IMG/VR virus record: IMGVR_UViG_2529292908_000015
Location: 1-13,916 of that record
From: a virus
Taxonomy: Duplodnaviria; Heunggongvirae; Uroviricota; Caudoviricetes
DNA: 13,916 nt
Strand: one strand, 5' to 3'
A program made the position numbers. Shown in pieces: positions 1-6,000 of this stretch. Each line of letters opens with the position of its first letter. Position 1 is the stretch's first letter.

Positions 1-3000
1 ATGCGTATTGAAATCTGCATAGCCAAAGAAAAAATGACTAAAATGCCAACCGGTGCTGTGGATGCGTTAAAGGAAGAATTAACCCGACGCATCAGTAAAC
101 GTTATGACGATGTAGAGGTGATCGTAAAAGCTACCAGCAACGATGGCCTTTCTGTTACGCGCACCGCCGATAAAGATTCAGCTAAAACTTTTGTTCAGGA
201 AACTCTGAAAGATACCTGGGAGTCTGCTGACGAGTGGTTTGTTCACTAATTAGCACGTAAAATCTGTAACGGCTGGAAATCATTCAATACTCGCACTATC
301 GGAAGTTCACCAGCCAGCCGCGGTACGTTCTTACATACGATGTACCGCTGTTCTCTTTACGATTTATAGCTGTACTGGTGAATTATGAGCAATCTGAATC
401 CATGCATGACGTGTGGTGCCTGTTGTGCATTTTCCGCGTCTCTTTTTACTGGGCAGAAGCTGACGATGCTGGCGGAAAGGTTTCGGTCAGTCTCACTGAG
501 CAAATATCTCCTTTTCATCGCTGTATGCGCGGCACCAATCAGAAAAATCCCCGATGTGGCGCTCTTGCCGGCCCCCCGGAGAAAACGCATATTGCTCTGT
601 TTACAAAAACCGTCCACATGCAGGGAATTCGCAATGTCCGGCGAAAATAGCATCGTAAATGAAGCATGTAATCGCGCACGGGAAAAATATGGATTTCCAA
701 AAATCTGAATATTCTCCGCCGTGCAAAAATGCGAACAACATCACTTCACTAATCAACCTGACATGGCATACTTAGCACGCTAACTATGATAACAAACTAA
801 TACCCTAAAACTCATGGTTCCGGGACTGGTCGTGGTCCCGTTTTTTATTCAGCCAGCAGGCCATCCGACAACATAACTGCGGATCGCCTTCAGGTCTGTC
901 AGCGCCTCAACCTCGGCTTTCATCTGCAACTGCCGTGTATTAATCTCCACTCCCTTCGCAAACATCGCCTGCTCTGTCGCTTCACTCAGTGCCATCAATG
1001 ATGCTGCCGTCATTGGCACATCATTATTATCAGCATCCGTCCGGAAAAATTTCTCTGGCAACTTAAAACAATATCCTATATATCCGGCGTCTCCGGTATG
1101 TAGAACGTGAAGTTTTTAAAATTATTTATTTACCATTTAACTAATTTTTAGATCCTGGGGTACTCCCGTCTTTTTCATTGCCTCCACGAAAGCGGAACTA
1201 ACAGAACCTGACCAGTAATACTGGAACCCACTAACAACGCCCTGATAAATCATGGTTTGTGTAGCACCACCTACGTTTACGGTGATGTTACCTGCTTTAC
1301 CACCGGCTAAATAAACAGCAGCTGTCGGTGTAGAGTTCGTCAAAAAGTGAGAAAGTGTAACGACAGCCCCTACCAGCCTCCCTGATCCGCAGCTTGCGGC
1401 GTTTGTAATTGTACCTTTACTTTTTTCTTCTAAAGGCCAGTCAGCGCCAACTGCGCCCCAGTTATCAACCTTGTCAGAGGATTTCCATTTATAGTACTCA
1501 GTTGCAATTTTACAGCCCATAGTTCGCCCAACCATTTGGCTCATCATAAAAGGTTTACTCAGTCCCAGTTTGGTTCCGGCGGCTCCCATCCACTGCTCAC
1601 CTGTTTCGCTCTTAGCCGAAGAGCCTACCCATCCCGATGTTACCCCCATCTCATCTCCCCCTTCTGAATGCGTGGGGTGAGTGTCACCCCACAATTTAAA
1701 TTCAGTAGAAACCAGAAACTACAACAGCTGTCGTTTACTTCTCCCGGAGTTCTTTAATCTCATGACGAAGTGTTTTAAAGCCCTCGACTAACAATGCAAT
1801 TATGCCGTTGTAGTTAAGACGCAGACGTTTTTCACCAGATATAACGTCTGCGTCTTCAGTTACCAGTTCAGGCAATGCTTTTTGTGCATCCTGAGCAATT
1901 AAACCAACCGACGTTTGCCAACCGTCGGCAGAGTACTGTATCTCGTAAAGATAACCAGTAAGTGCCTCCAGACGATCTAACGCATTATCCAGTTTTACCA
2001 GATTTCGCTTGTTGCGTTTATCCGAACGGATCTGAATATCGTTAAATGAGCCGTTTCCGGTCACCGTCAAATTGCCATTAATACCACCATTAAAAGTTTG
2101 TGCCTGAGTCCATGTATTGGCAGTAGTAAGCAGTTCTGTTCCTTGCCCGGGGGCTCCTGTGTCTCCCTTCGGTCCCTGTGGCCCCGCCGGACCTGCTGGA
2201 CCTGCTACTCCCGGATCACCTTTATCGCCTTTCGGCCCCGGCGCACCTGCCGGACCTGCTGGTCCAGCCACTCCCGGATCGCCTTTGTCACCTTTTGGCC
2301 CCTGTGCGCCTGCCGGGCCTGCAGCTCCCGTATCTCCCTTTGCCCCCTGTGGACCTGCATTTCCCGTCAGACCGGTCTCTCCCCTGTCGCCTTTCGGCCC
2401 CTGCGGGCCTGCCGGACCAGCATCACCTGCCGGCCCCCGTTCACCGGTTGCCCCTGCCGGGCCGGTGTCGCCACGCTCTCCTTTATCTCCCTTCGGCCCC
2501 TGAGGACCCGCGGGCCCCGGTTCCCCCTTTGGCCCGGGAGGTCCCACCACGGTGGGGATTCGGTTTACGGCCTCTTCCGCCGCTATCCTGCTTTGTTCCG
2601 CTGACTGTGCGCTTTCTGCTGACTCCCGGGCTTTTTCTGTTGCGGTCGTTGCATCCCTGACTGCATTACCGGCTGCACTTTCTGCCGTCTTTTTTGACAA
2701 CTCAGCATCTGTTGCACTTTGTAATGACTCACTGGCTTTTTGAGCGGCCGCAGAGGCCGAGGACGAGGACGCCTCCTCTGACTGCTTTGCTGAGGCTGCA
2801 CTTTCTGCCGCCTGCCGGGCTGACTCCGATGCATCCCCTGCTGAAGTGTCAGCATTTTCAGCGCTCTCTTCTGCCTGACTGGCTGATATGCCGGCATTCC
2901 TCGCTGACGTCTCCGCCTCTCCGGCATTCTTCTTCGCCTCCTCTGCGTTACGCACCACCTCTTCCACCATCAGTTCAAAGCGACGCAGTGCCTCCGGACG

Positions 3001-6000
3001 GGCATCATCCTCCGTCATGGCACCGAGAAAATCATTCAGCGTACCCGGTTGTGAGTCTTCATACACGGTGATGGTCCCGGCATGCGATGGCGGGAAGCCT
3101 TCCACCAACAGAATAACGCTGTACTGACCGTACTCAACGTCCATGCTGTAACGCCCGGCTTCATCCGGATTTTCTGAGGCCACCGTGTTCGCCACCACCG
3201 TGGTGCTGTTACGTTTTGCTTTCAGCTGGATTGTGCAGTTCTGTACCGGTTTTCCTGTGCCGTCTTTCAGTACACCAGAAATCTTTACTGTCATATTCAC
3301 CCCACAAAAAAGCCCGCCTGAACCGGCGGGCTGTCATAACTCTGTGTTACCTGGCTAATCAGAATTTATAGCCGACACCCACGATGAAACCGTCAGTGCG
3401 CCAGTCGCCACTGCCGGAACCTTCATAAGCAATATCAATGGCCACGGATTCGGTCGGGTTAAACTGCACGCCAGCCCCCCACGCCAGTGACGTGTTGCTG
3501 TGGCGACCGTCATCACTTCCGGTCAGCACATCGTGCGTTTTCCCCTTGTTGTCAGTTACGCGGAGATAATCCCCGGAGAAAGTCGACACACGGCTGTAAG
3601 CCACACCCGCCATCGCATACGCGCTGAACCATTCATTCACGCGCACAGATGGCCCCGCCATCACGCTGAACCAGCGGTTACGCACAGAATCCTCATGCCA
3701 GCGGGTATCGTTGTAGTGCGTTTTTTGCTCACCTTCAGCATTGGCATAACTGAATGACGTAATCAGCCCCAGCGTGTCCGTAAATTCATAACGGTATTTC
3801 ACGTTAATCCCGTTCAGATTATCGCTGCCGGGAGCGTTCGTACGGGCATGAAGATACCCCGCGCTCAGTGTGGACTGATGTTCAGACGCCCATGCAGGCG
3901 CACCGGATACGGACAGACAGATGGCTGCGGACAAAATGGCTGCACAAACTTTACGCATAATTACCTCTCGCTTTTCTGCAATAAAAAAGGCGCCATTTCT
4001 GGCGCCCGTATATGGGTTATAAAATTCAGCTGATACTGATGCCTGCGGTGGCTTTCTTCATCACCACAACCAGCAAATCGCTGATACTTGCTGTGGGATA
4101 CCAGTTATTCATCAGCCATGCTGATACCGAAAACTCCAGCGTCATGTGACCGTGACCGGCAGGCATATCAATAACGCCACTGTAAATCAGCGTATTATCC
4201 AGCGCGGTACGGTTATAAATTTCAGCACCGTTTTTCCGCACTATCAGACGGCATGAGGAGTAAATATCAGTATGCTCTCTCTCATGCTTAGCGCCACTGA
4301 ATGCCACCGCCGGAATAACAATCTGCCGGTCAAACGGCTGATCGTCATAAACCCTGACGGTAATGGTCCCTGATGGCCACCGCTCCGGTGCACGGGAGTC
4401 ACGGGGGAAAGCTTTGCCCACTGTTTTAACGAGATCGCCTTCAATCTGGTTCGCGGACAGTTTTCCCAGAACCCGACAGTTCTCGTTAATCGTGACGTTG
4501 TTGAGCGTCCCGGAATTCGCATTCACGTTACCGCTGATATCAGCATTTCTTGCGGTCAGCCTGCCCTCCGGCGTCAGGGAAAACGTCGGGGGATTGCCGG
4601 ACGAGGTGATACTCACCGCAAACAGCCGCTTCAGGAACACATCGTTCATGAACAACTGATTCCCCTGCGCCACAAATAACGGCGTGGTGTTGCCGTCCTC
4701 CGGGTTAATCATCGCAATACGGTCAGCCAGCAGCAGTATGTTGCTCAGGGGCTGGCCATCAGTATCCTCAATCCCCGCTCCAATACCGGCAACATAGGGT
4801 ATGCCATTTTTTGTTTTCTGTACCTTCAGCATGTAAAGTGCAGCAAGGTCATCATTTGTGTCCTTCTGCACGCGCTGTACTGCCGGTTCAGTGAAGTATA
4901 CGTCTCCAGCAGCTGGTGGTGGGGCTTTTCCAGTTCACCCCGCTGATGCTTCTCTTCTGCCACCCTGGCAAACAGTGCCTGTAATTTCAGATAATCGCTT
5001 TCGTTCGGCAACTGCCACTGACTGGCACTGAACCAGTGCGACACCATGTTTTTCTTTCCTGTGGCATCTGCAATCTGTTTTGCCGTTATCCCCAGGGCCG
5101 CGCGCGCATCACGAAAGTAAGAAATCAGCGGGGCCATCACATGCTGTTTCAGTGCACTGCCCTTCGCCGCATACCCGGCATCTTTCGGACGATACGGCCC
5201 CTGATAATGTTCCGCGAACAGAATGCGCTCTGTGGCGGGGAAATACGCCCGCAGGCTTTCCTTGTTGCATCCGTTCCAGCGTCCGGACGGCTTCGCCCAG
5301 ATAATATGGTTCAGCACACTGAAGCGTTCACGCATCATGATTTCGATATCAGATGCCAGGCGATGACCACAGAACAGGTAAAGACTTCCGGCAGGTTTCA
5401 GCACCCGCCAGAACTGCGCCAGACACTGGTCCAGCCACTTCAGGTAATCATCGTCGCCCTTCCACTGGTTATCCCAGCCCTCAGGCTTCACTTTAAAGTA
5501 CGGCGGGTCCGTGACTATCAGGTCAACAGAATTTTCGGGTAACGACCGGATAAATTCCAGGCAGTCGGCGTTGATTAACTCACAACTGGATATTTTCACA
5601 GTATTAAGCATGGATCATTAAGCCTGTCTCTGATAGGCTCATTCTGCTTTTGCGCAAAGCAGTGGGCCTGAGGTTTGCTTGTGAACCCAACGCATGAGCA
5701 GATGGCTGGTGGGTGCCCCTAACACCCACCAGCCGCCCATTTACCACAAATAAAAAAGCCTTCACTGCGGAAGGCGTCTGTAACAACCGAACTGATAGTC
5801 TGCCAGACCCGCCATAACCAGCTGGGTCAGTATTAACTGGCAGCGTTCGCGTGAAAGGTAAGTATTCTGCGCAATCTCCCCGACTGTCGCCGGGTCGGTA
5901 ACGCTTAATTCATTAAACACCACTCTGGCGGTTTCTGTCATATCCTGCTGTTTCAGCATGTCTTTTTCCCTTTTCCGATTAACGTGACACACCAATAACT

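What the first reader, a model, noticed from the sequence alone, without database searches (positions are those of the whole stretch)
1735..3294. Tail fibre with a ~44-triplet collagen-like stalk and a self-cleaving chaperone module
The lambda Stf-like N-terminus is followed by an Ala/Ser/Glu-rich linker, a long Gly-X-Y tract and a C-terminal domain of the intramolecular-chaperone type, leaving only about 35 residues between stalk and cleavage region as a distal tip. The triplet tract is internally repetitive at the DNA level, a substrate for length variation by recombination, and it creates the many GC-rich shadow ORFs on the plus strand.
Basis: partly seen in the sequence, partly recalled or inferred. 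Interest (0 to 1): 0.4.

Follow-up and report, generated by a model that had tools for sequence, protein, structure and literature searches.

The report
Collagen-stalked prophage tail fibre with gp38 cap
This is a known type of lambda-like prophage side tail fibre with a collagen-like stalk and a self-cleaving folding domain, and its short tip makes sense because the next gene encodes a separate T2/RB43-type Gp38 adhesin that most likely caps the fibre and binds the host.

Summary
Window 1735-3294 (minus strand) encodes an intact 519-aa protein. It has a lambda Stf N-terminal collar domain, a 117-aa Ala/Ser/Glu-rich segment, 45 uninterrupted Gly-X-Y triplets, a 38-residue tip and a 96-residue Peptidase_S74 chaperone domain with the conserved SDxRxK Ser/Lys motif.

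This architecture is already in the literature as "EPclD" (Ghosh 2012, 519 aa / PCoil 116 / collagen 135). There the Ala/Ser/Glu-rich segment is a trimeric coiled coil, not a loose linker.

It encodes a 170-aa protein with a Gp38_N domain. The fibre's tip plus chaperone is homologous to the C-terminus of T-even gp37 (PDB 6F45_A, E 1e-13).

The most likely mechanism is the T2/S16/RB43 one. The chaperone folds the trimer and cuts itself off at Ser424. One Gp38 monomer then caps the tip, and its variable C-domain binds the receptor.

Near-identical alleles carry 45, 38, 36, 34, 33, 28, 27 or 9 triplets, so recombination within the tract does change stalk length. The same distal cassette sits on the 863-aa fibre of the O104:H4 Stx2 podophage.

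The prophage in this window is defective. The finding is ordinary and well annotated, so interest is low to moderate.

The parts
1735..3294 (-). Side tail fibre CDS, 519 aa plus stop (EPclD-type collagen-like prophage fibre)
   Evidence: Intact ORF. Pfam phage_tail_N + Collagen + Peptidase_S74. Length and domain sizes match the EPclD entries of PMC3368898.
2896..3294 (-). N-terminal lambda-Stf-type domain (aa 1-133). Aa 1-94 are the collar domain that anchors the fibre to a lambda-type tail.
   Evidence: PF08400 E 1.8e-68. PDB 9e7m_Ta (Ur-lambda Stf 1-94) E 5.6e-52, 87 of 94 identical by my count of the printed alignment. Collar function described in PMC12617516.
2545..2895 (-). Ala/Ser/Glu-rich PCoil segment (aa 134-250), predicted trimeric coiled coil nearly lacking Leu/Ile/Val
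   Evidence: Composition. Equivalent PCoil domain of EPclA shown experimentally to be an alpha-helical trimerisation module (PMC3368898). Not tested on this sequence.
2140..2544 (-). Collagen-like stalk: 45 uninterrupted Gly-X-Y triplets (aa 251-385)
   Evidence: PF01391 E 4.1e-21. Matches to vertebrate collagens.
2186..2322 (.). 63-bp (7-triplet) tandem repeat, 2.2 copies, 85% identity, inside the collagen tract
   Evidence: Tandem Repeats Finder. Allelic in-frame deletions map to repeated [11 protein letters not shown] / [10 protein letters not shown] motifs.
2026..2139 (-). 38-residue tip (aa 386-423, [38 protein letters not shown]). Proposed docking site for Gp38 after chaperone release.
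   Evidence: Its C-terminal half aligns with the S16 gp37 tip in PDB 6F45_A and with T-even gp37 (GSFNDVxIR). Nearly invariant among prophage alleles.
1738..2025 (-). S74-type intramolecular chaperone (aa 424-519). Putative catalytic Ser424 at 2023-2025 and Lys429 at 2008-2010.
   Evidence: PF13884 46.6 bits against a cut-off of 22. 6F45_A E 1.3e-13. Ser and Lys invariant in 8 diverse fibres.
1137..1649 (-). Gp38-like adhesin gene, 170 aa plus stop. Aa 1-43 (1521-1649) form the fibre-attachment domain. Aa 44-170 (1140-1520) form the variable beta-rich putative receptor-binding domain.
   Evidence: PF21721 Gp38_N E 8e-20. phrog_1121 'tail fiber adhesin' over the full length, E 4e-60. PDB 6F45_D aa 1-44. 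PGAP name 'receptor recognizing protein Gp38'. AF2 C-domain pLDDT 80-94.
1672..1692 (.). GC-rich hairpin in the 85-nt spacer between the fibre stop and the gp38 start
   Evidence: A terminator is annotated at the equivalent place between gp37 and gp38 of Klebsiella phage Matisse. Function not tested.
3311..3332 (-). Terminator-like hairpin plus T-run between lom and the fibre gene
849..1061 (-). Truncated DUF4376 ORF (70 aa), a relic of a gene displaced downstream of gp38
   Evidence: PF14301 E 6e-7, matching only profile positions 55-99. Annotated 'missing N-terminus' in L001 and L003-L006.

Best explanation
The locus is a two-gene receptor-binding cassette of a lambda-like prophage.

The fibre. 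Gene 1 encodes a trimeric side tail fibre with five parts. A lambda-Stf collar domain fixes it to the tail. A Leu-poor coiled coil and a 45-triplet collagen triple helix form a long thin stalk. A 38-residue beta-structured tip ends the mature fibre. A C-terminal S74 intramolecular chaperone nucleates trimer folding and then removes itself by Ser424/Lys429 autoproteolysis.

The adhesin. Gene 2 encodes a 170-aa Gp38-type adhesin. One monomer caps the freed trimeric tip through its conserved N-terminal ~43 residues. Its variable C-terminal beta-domain contacts the host receptor.

This is the T2/S16/RB43 long-tail-fibre solution (gp37 tip + chaperone + gp38) grafted onto a lambdoid Stf.

Role of the collagen-coding DNA. 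It acts as a length-variable spacer and as the recombination joint through which the distal cassette moves between fibres.

What is shown and what is inferred. Shown here: domain identities, homology, synteny, allele series and variation pattern. Inferred by homology: cleavage, 3:1 capping and receptor binding by Gp38.
For: Domains.

Homology to T-even gp37. Fibre aa 405-518 match S16 gp37 in the gp37-gp38 crystal entry 6F45_A (E 1.3e-13; profile E 3.5e-15). They also match PHROGs 'long tail fiber distal subunit' families and 1105 phage records at 80% coverage or more, mostly Straboviridae. The SDxRxK Ser and Lys are invariant.

The downstream gene. Gp38_N scores 71 bits against a cut-off of 25. 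S16 gp38 aa 1-45 match. phrog_1121 'tail fiber adhesin' matches over the full length.

Synteny. A Gp38_N gene directly follows every S74-ended fibre examined. These are the window, L001-L006 and L013-L018, and Matisse, ime09 and Melville. No such gene follows the T5-like fibre or the haarsle fibre.

Variation pattern. Between the window and L016, the fibre chaperone domain is 91/96 identical and the tip is nearly identical. The Gp38 N-domain is 40/43 identical, but the Gp38 C-domain is only 84/127 identical. The same pattern holds across the family.

Literature. Most T-even gp37 carry a self-cleaving chaperone and are then capped by one gp38 (PMC9569957). The gp38 N-terminal helices dock on the gp37 tip (PMC6851490). 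RB43 has a 174-aa gp38 with a novel C-domain that carries host-range mutations (PMC3157838).

Module exchange. Window 1018-2359 is 94% identical to the O104:H4 Stx2 podophage fibre plus Gp38.
Against: - No biochemical data exist for this protein or for any EPclD fibre.
- The AF2 monomer model of tip + chaperone was unusable (pLDDT 48). The Gp38 N-domain was not modelled confidently (pLDDT below 50). No complex prediction was possible with the tools.
- The third of the three Trp residues said to anchor S16 gp38 is Met in this family (PFMMS instead of PFW).
- The prophage in this window lacks most tail genes. The cassette therefore cannot act from this element alone.
Confidence: 0.78

Rival explanations
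1. The fibre's own 38-residue tip binds the receptor. The downstream 170-aa protein is only an assembly factor that is not retained on the virion, like T4 gp38 or lambda Tfa.
For: Some records name small Gp38_N proteins 'distal long tail fiber assembly catalyst'. The T4/lambda precedent for gp38/Tfa as a chaperone is described in PMC9659904.
Against: - The fibre already carries its own chaperone (S74).
- The protein has the T2/S16 adhesin attachment domain (Gp38_N), not a Tfa-type domain.
- The tip is nearly invariant while the Gp38 C-domain diverges (66% identity). This is the pattern expected of the receptor-binding part.
- Host-range mutations of the RB43-type small gp38 map to its C-domain (PMC3157838).
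Confidence: 0.07
2. In this genome the two genes are inert leftovers of a decayed prophage. They matter only as a sequence reservoir for recombination with other lambdoid phages.
For: - J is reduced to its C-terminal 281 aa and abuts a DNA methylase gene (4026-4871 against 4826-5611).
- No lysis, head or tail-shaft genes lie between Q (7688-8086) and J.
- Relatives show further decay. The L003 fibre is frameshifted inside the collagen tract. L001 has J fused to a portal remnant.
Against: Both ORFs are intact here. The Gp38 protein sequence is identical on at least 1000 contigs. Intact J genes accompany the same cassette in Shigella boydii (L013, L014). The module is therefore functional in the population. 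This reading concerns present activity only and does not conflict with the mechanism above.
Confidence: 0.55
3. The collagen-like protein is a bacterial cell-surface adhesin or virulence factor of the Scl/Lcl type rather than a phage part.
For: NCBIfam gives partial hits to SclB, Lcl and SclA. One allele is named 'SclE' in an NCBI record (P0134).
Against: All these hits fall far below the curated cut-offs (94 against 325 bits, 74 against 500, 63 against 400) and cover mainly the collagen tract. The N-terminus is the lambda Stf collar domain. The gene sits in the lambda lom-stf position, after J and lom. No LPXTG anchor or signal-type family was reported in any scan.
Confidence: 0.02

Closest known systems
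EPclD-type EHEC/Shigella prophage collagen-like proteins (Ghosh et al. 2012, PMC3368898)
   Same: Same architecture and sizes. PfN + PCoil (116 aa) + one collagen domain (135 aa) + a C-terminus unrelated to PfC, 519 aa in total, as listed for EC4100B ECoL_05072 and S. dysenteriae SDB_03138. A 411-aa / 27-aa-collagen variant is listed for S. boydii (SbBS512_E1096), matching P0145.
   Different: That paper left the EPclD C-terminus unassigned. It does not mention an S74 chaperone or a downstream Gp38 adhesin (no occurrence of 'chaperone' or 'endosialidase'). I did not compare the sequences directly, only lengths and domain sizes.
T2/S16-type long tail fibre tip: gp37 with self-cleaving C-terminal chaperone, capped by a gp38 adhesin (PDB 6F45)
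   Same: Homologous tip + chaperone (E 1e-13). Homologous Gp38 N-terminal attachment domain. Same gene order with a short spacer.
   Different: - The carrier is a lambdoid side fibre with a collagen stalk, not a myovirus beta-helical fibre.
- This Gp38 is 170 aa and lacks the glycine-rich polyglycine-II sandwich.
- The third anchoring Trp is Met.
RB43/RB16-type small gp38 adhesin (Trojet et al. 2011, PMC3157838)
   Same: Both are about 170-175 aa. The first ~45-50 aa resemble T6/T2 gp38. The unrelated ~120-aa C-domain determines host range. tblastn links aa 6-103 to RB16 gp38 at 32% identity and the full length to Kosakonia phage 305 at 38.5%.
   Different: C-domain similarity to RB43 and RB16 themselves is weak and partial. 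The receptor is unknown here; RB43-GVA needs LPS core and OmpF.
Lambda Stf/Tfa and T4 gp37/gp38 (chaperone-type) system
   Same: Same N-terminal collar domain and the same genomic slot after J and lom.
   Different: There is no Tfa-type chaperone gene here, only a truncated DUF4376 ORF. Folding is delegated to the in-cis S74 domain and binding to a Gp38 cap.
Stx podophage lateral fibres (933W/Sp5/phi24B gp61, EPclB type; O104:H4 Stx2 phage fibre)
   Same: Collagen-like shafts whose distal modules are shared between lambdoid sipho- and podophages (bioRxiv 10.64898/2026.04.10.717836). The O104:H4 phage fibre carries the same last ~24 triplets, tip, chaperone and Gp38 at 94% DNA identity.
   Different: phi24B/Sp5 fibres end in the PfC globular domain, not S74 + Gp38. 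The O104:H4 fibre has a different N-terminal anchor, three collagen tracts (32+20+30 triplets) and a middle globular domain.

Membership tests
Peptidase_S74 / C-terminal intramolecular chaperone of phage fibres and spikes | Match to the family profile above the curated threshold | tested here: met
   PF13884 46.6 bits against a cut-off of 22, aa 424-479 covering profile positions 1-58 of 58.
Peptidase_S74 / C-terminal intramolecular chaperone of phage fibres and spikes | Conserved serine, with lysine five residues downstream, at the start of the domain (S-D-x-R-x-K) | tested here: met
   SDKRNK at Ser424/Lys429. Ser and Lys are invariant in the alignment with Matisse, ime09, Melville, RB49, a T5-like fibre, haarsle Stf and the O104:H4 fibre. 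That these two residues form the catalytic dyad is my recollection of the T5 pb1 and endosialidase work, not something read here.
Peptidase_S74 / C-terminal intramolecular chaperone of phage fibres and spikes | Location at the extreme C-terminus of a trimeric fibre | tested here: met
   The domain spans aa 424-519 of 519. It follows the coiled-coil and collagen trimerising segments.
Peptidase_S74 / C-terminal intramolecular chaperone of phage fibres and spikes | Characteristic three-dimensional fold | tested here: inconclusive
   The AF2 monomer model had mean pLDDT 48 and was not used for fold search.
Peptidase_S74 / C-terminal intramolecular chaperone of phage fibres and spikes | Autoproteolytic release after trimer folding | not testable with these tools
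   Needs expression with SDS-PAGE or mass spectrometry, plus S424A and K429A mutants.
T2/S16-type gp38 tail-fibre adhesin | N-terminal attachment domain (Gp38_N) | tested here: met
   PF21721 71 bits against a cut-off of 25, aa 1-40 covering profile positions 1-40 of 40. PDB 6F45_D aa 1-45 E 2e-3.
T2/S16-type gp38 tail-fibre adhesin | Gene immediately downstream of a fibre gene that ends in a self-cleaving chaperone | tested here: met
   An 85-nt spacer separates the genes in the window. The same arrangement is seen in all the related loci and T-even phages examined.
T2/S16-type gp38 tail-fibre adhesin | Three conserved tryptophans at the apices of the attachment helices | tested here: inconclusive
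   W7 and W20 are invariant. The third position (PFW in S16 and T-even phages) is Met in this family (PFMMS).
T2/S16-type gp38 tail-fibre adhesin | Glycine-rich motifs forming the polyglycine-II sandwich receptor-binding domain | tested here: not met
   No glycine-rich motifs are present. The C-domain does not align with ime09 or Melville gp38. AF2 gives a compact beta-domain instead. The protein therefore belongs with the small RB43-type subgroup, not the classical T2/S16 type.
RB43-type small gp38 adhesin | About 170-175 aa; first ~50 aa gp38-like; unrelated ~120-aa C-terminal specificity domain | tested here: met
   170 aa, with the N-domain at aa 1-43. About 25 full-length clusters of 160-182 aa were found in 1.84 billion representatives. 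Definition taken from PMC3157838.
RB43-type small gp38 adhesin | C-domain homologous to that of RB43/RB16 | tested here: inconclusive
   tblastn to RB16 covers aa 6-103 at 31.7% and to RB43 covers aa 6-54 only. The full length matches Kosakonia phage 305 at 38.5%.
EPclD collagen-like prophage fibre | PfN + PCoil + single collagen domain + non-PfC C-terminus | tested here: met
   PF08400, a 117-aa A/S/E-rich segment, a 135-aa collagen tract and no PF06820 hit. Sizes equal those in Table 3 of PMC3368898.
Lambda Stf collar-domain fibres | N-terminal ~94-residue domain that forms the collar on the tail | tested here: met
   PDB 9e7m_Ta aa 1-94 E 5.6e-52. Collar role described in PMC12617516. Attachment itself was not tested.
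Collagen triple helix | Long uninterrupted (Gly-X-Y)n with Pro-rich X and Y positions | tested here: met
   45 triplets, with Pro in 20 X positions and 6 Y positions. Triple-helix formation was shown for EPclA, not for this protein.
Lambda Tfa / T4 gp38 chaperone-dependent fibres | Separate Tfa-type assembly gene downstream of the fibre gene | tested here: not met
   Only a 70-aa DUF4376 fragment remains downstream of gp38.

The most novel reading that the evidence does not exclude
The tip + S74 chaperone + small Gp38 unit may be a self-contained receptor-binding cassette that crosses virion morphotypes. It is found on T-even-like myoviruses, lambdoid siphovirus side fibres and the O104:H4 Stx2 podovirus fibre. 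On this reading, collagen-coding DNA serves as the universal splice site for the cassette. The real host-range determinant of these temperate phages, including a Stx2 phage, would then be the small Gp38. Its beta-domain has no solved structural relative and its receptor is unknown. I found no paper stating this for lambdoid or Stx phages, though my search covers open-access text only.
Probability: 0.3. Interest if true: 0.45.

Novelty: already known. Interest (0 to 1): 0.25.

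Why it matters
The result explains an apparent oddity: a long fibre with almost no distal domain. The adhesin is encoded separately.

For annotation, the fibre and the downstream 170-aa gene should be read as one unit. RefSeq wrongly splits the intact collagen-containing ORF into a pseudogene and a fragment.

For phage engineering, lambda-based particles might be retargeted by swapping a 127-residue Gp38 C-domain rather than a whole fibre.

For Stx-phage ecology, the same cassette sits on the O104:H4 Stx2 phage. Its small Gp38 is therefore a candidate host-range determinant.

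None of this is surprising to a specialist. Every component family and the mechanism are established in T-even phages.

Tried and rejected
- AF2 of fibre aa 380-519 with a 7-sequence alignment gave mean pLDDT 48. The model was discarded and no fold search was run on it.
- A complex prediction of three tips plus one Gp38 was not possible with the tools.
- NCBIfam has no model that hits the 170-aa protein. Its Scl/Lcl hits to the fibre lie far below the cut-offs and cover mainly the collagen tract, so the surface-adhesin reading was rejected.
- A profile search of the PDB with the tip + chaperone alignment reached only 6F45_A robustly. Hits to 8jov_1 and to MYRF (7dc3) were marginal.
- The exact 519-aa sequence is not in the 15-billion-protein collection. 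I did not try the 521-aa GTG-start version.
- Literature searches for gp38 together with Stx, prophage, lambdoid or side tail fibre found no paper describing this cassette outside Straboviridae.
- No complete RefSeq E. coli genome contains the window's J-methylase junction, so the source strain was not identified.

Full report
**1. The observation**

The minus-strand ORF 1735..3294 is intact and encodes 519 aa from the ATG. An in-frame GTG two codons upstream is less likely to be the start. The ATG product aligns from residue 1 with the Ur-lambda Stf chain 9e7m_Ta.

Pfam finds phage_tail_N (aa 1-133, E 1.8e-68), Collagen (E 4.1e-21) and Peptidase_S74 (aa 424-479, 46.6 bits against a gathering score of 22).

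A script counts 45 uninterrupted Gly-X-Y triplets at aa 251-385, window 2140-2544. It also finds an SDKRNK motif at Ser424 (codon 2023-2025) and Lys429. The stretch between the last triplet and Ser424 is 38 residues.

The tract is 70% GC. It has no stop codon in two of the three plus-strand frames. This accounts for the overlapping plus-strand ORFs 2098-2604, 2117-2503 and 2178-2660.

DNA-level repetition is modest. There is one 63-bp unit x2.2 at 85% identity (2186-2322), plus a ladder of 60-73% offset copies.

The description is therefore correct in all particulars.

**2.

Eighty-five nucleotides downstream, at 1137..1649 on the same strand, lies a 170-aa ORF preceded by a strong Shine-Dalgarno sequence. 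Its first 40 residues match Pfam Gp38_N, the 'phage tail fibre adhesin Gp38 N-terminal domain' (E 8e-20, 71 bits against 25). Its whole length matches phrog_1121 'tail fiber adhesin' (E 4e-60). Its first 44 residues align with the receptor recognition protein of Salmonella phage S16 in PDB 6F45 chain D. RefSeq names the orthologue 'receptor recognizing protein Gp38'.

The fibre's last 114 residues match the other protein of that crystal entry, the gp37 long tail fibre distal subunit (6F45_A). The single-sequence E-value is 1.3e-13 and the profile E-value is 3.5e-15. They also match PHROG families of 'long tail fiber protein distal subunit' and 1105 phage genomes at 80% coverage or more, mostly Straboviridae.

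An alignment with gp37 of Klebsiella phage Matisse, ime09, Melville and RB49, a T5-like fibre, the haarsle Stf and the O104:H4 phage fibre shows (I/Y)RSDxRxK with invariant Ser and Lys.

**3. Mechanism**

Two papers read here supply the T-even mechanism.
[quoted passage not shown] After its removal one gp38 monomer attaches to each fibre, and the gp38 C-terminal domain recognises the receptor (PMC9569957).
- In S16 the N-terminal helical bundle of gp38 docks on the base of the gp37 trimer through conserved tryptophans (PMC6851490).

Three results argue that the window's cassette works the same way.

Homology. Both partners are homologous to the S16 pair, as set out in section 2.

Synteny. A Gp38_N gene directly follows every S74-ended fibre I examined. 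The cases are the window; five E. coli relatives (L001, L003-L006); the O104:H4 phage (L002); three Shigella boydii loci; three loci with a more divergent fibre, P0240; and Matisse, ime09 and Melville. No such gene follows the T5-like fibre or the haarsle fibre.

Variation pattern. Between the window and L016, the chaperone domain is 91/96 identical and the tip differs by a 4-residue deletion and a few substitutions. The Gp38 N-domain is 40/43 identical. The Gp38 C-domain is only 84/127 identical. Across the family the first 41 residues are almost invariant, while full-length identity to the window protein falls to 54-72%. The part that diversifies is the part expected to touch the host.

The 38-residue 'distal tip' is therefore best read as an adaptor for a separately encoded adhesin.

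Cleavage, 3:1 capping and receptor binding are inferences by homology. None of them was or could be tested here.

**4. Which kind of gp38**

This matches the 'RB43-type' adhesin of Trojet et al. That protein is 174 aa, with a T6-like first ~50 aa and a novel ~120-aa C-domain in which host-range mutations arise (PMC3157838). tblastn links the window protein to RB16 gp38 over aa 6-103 (32%) and to Kosakonia phage 305 over the full length (38.5%). An exhaustive profile search finds 99 clusters, about 25 of them full-length small proteins of 160-182 aa.

One departure deserves note. The third anchoring Trp of S16 (PFW) is Met here (PFMMS).

**5. The stalk**

Ghosh et al. (PMC3368898) classified EHEC and Shigella prophage collagen-like proteins as EPclA to EPclD. 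They showed for EPclA that the collagen domain forms a true, thermostable triple helix. [quoted passage not shown]

Their EPclD class is PfN-PCoil-Col with a C-terminus unrelated to PfC. It lists proteins of 519 aa with PCoil 116 and collagen 135, exactly the sizes found here. It also lists a 411-aa / 27-aa-collagen variant from S. boydii. The paper does not assign the EPclD C-terminus and does not mention a chaperone or gp38.

The architecture is therefore already published.

The N-terminal 94 residues are 87/94 identical, by my count of the printed alignment, to the Ur-lambda Stf collar domain. Twelve copies of that domain ring the tail and carry four trimeric fibres (PMC12617516).

**6. Length variation and module exchange**

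The third homologue search returned alleles that are 246-248/250 identical over the N-terminal 250 residues and 134/134 identical over the C-terminal 134. They carry 38, 36, 34, 33, 28, 27 or 9 triplets against 45 here.

The gaps are all in frame and lie between repeated [11 protein letters not shown] / [10 protein letters not shown] motifs. The 498-aa alleles are shorter by 7 triplets in all (21 aa, the same length as the 63-bp repeat unit), although the alignment splits this into a 6-triplet and a 1-triplet gap. L003 carries a frameshift inside the tract.

Other fibres carry the same distal cassette on different proximal parts.
- L004 and L005 have a different phage_tail_N variant, no PCoil and 19+38 triplets.
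- The O104:H4 Stx2 podophage fibre is 863 aa with 32+20+30 triplets. It is 94% identical to the window at the DNA level from window 1018 to 2359. The joint thus lies inside collagen-coding DNA.

A 2026 preprint notes the analogous sharing of the collagen shaft and C-terminal domain between phi24B gp61 and a lambdoid siphophage.

**7. Context**

The gene order is J(C-terminus)-lom-fibre-gp38-(truncated DUF4376)-ykgJ-like ORF-dinI, as in S. boydii.

The prophage is defective. Only the last 281 aa of J remain, abutting a DNA methylase gene. Upstream come Q, DUF968, DnaB-like, DnaC-like and replication genes, with no lysis, head or tail-shaft genes. From this element alone the cassette cannot be used.

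Both ORFs are nevertheless intact. The Gp38 sequence is found unchanged on at least 1000 contigs.

**8. Verdict**

Two refinements apply: the linker is a coiled-coil rod, and the short tip is explained by a downstream Gp38 cap.

The fibre architecture is published (EPclD). Public annotation already names its parts 'peptidase S74' and 'receptor recognizing protein Gp38'. The mechanism is the established T2/S16/RB43 one. I therefore rate it as already known.

The only mildly new point is that this T-even-type cassette serves lambdoid side fibres and a Stx2 podophage fibre. I found no paper saying so in the open-access text searched. Interest: 0.25.

Noticed in passing
window 4026-5611: The prophage is defective. 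Only the C-terminal 281 aa of the tail-tip protein J remain (4026-4871, minus strand). They overlap the end of a DNA methylase gene (4826-5611, minus strand). No lysis, head or tail-shaft genes lie between Q (7688-8086) and J. No complete RefSeq E. coli genome contains this junction.
   Followed up: partly
window 6000-7600: A low-GC island (36-41% GC) carries two overlapping plus-strand ORFs (6307-6831 and 6774-7580). The first has type I restriction HSDR_N domains. Relatives annotate a single 'type I restriction endonuclease' here, so the gene looks split in the window.
   Followed up: partly
L001 12736-14295; L006 3737-5296: RefSeq/PGAP annotates the fibre gene in strains JKHS016 and 23CRST047 as a pseudogene 'missing C-terminus' plus a separate 'tail fiber domain-containing protein'. 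The 1560-nt frame is uninterrupted, so this is an annotation artefact, probably caused by the collagen tract.
   Followed up: yes
L003 3736-5041: The OkiPb01712 allele of the related 434-aa fibre has a genuine +1 frameshift inside the collagen-coding repeats. The repeats are therefore also a site of gene inactivation.
   Followed up: yes
window 849-1061: A 70-aa ORF matches only the C-terminal part of DUF4376 and is annotated 'missing N-terminus' in relatives. It looks like the remnant of a gene displaced when the tip-chaperone-gp38 cassette was acquired.
   Followed up: partly
window 1672-1692: A 9-bp-stem GC-rich hairpin lies in the spacer between the fibre stop codon and the gp38 start. Klebsiella phage Matisse has an annotated terminator at the equivalent position between gp37 and gp38. 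It might set the 3:1 expression ratio. This was not tested.
   Followed up: no
window 1545-1550 (Gp38 aa 34-35); alignment A1: The third of the three tryptophans reported to anchor S16 gp38 on gp37 (PFW) is methionine (PFMMS) throughout the prophage small-Gp38 family and in one classical glycine-rich gp38 (P0013).
   Followed up: partly
protein P0134: A 486-aa allele of this E. coli/Shigella prophage fibre is named 'collagen-like surface-anchored protein SclE [Streptococcus pneumoniae]' on a 3.5-Mb NCBI contig. The assembly is probably mislabelled or contaminated.
   Followed up: no
protein P0041: A 4481-aa highly repetitive protein gives 33 weak matches to aa 41-134 of the small Gp38 profile. 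This could be a distant relationship between the adhesin's beta-domain and a repeat of giant bacterial surface proteins, or a compositional artefact.
   Followed up: no
window 385-708 and 1-249: Beyond the prophage end lie a ykgJ-like cysteine-cluster ORF (annotated as frameshifted in L001) and a DinI-family gene. The same flank follows the cassette in Shigella boydii loci L013-L015.
   Followed up: no
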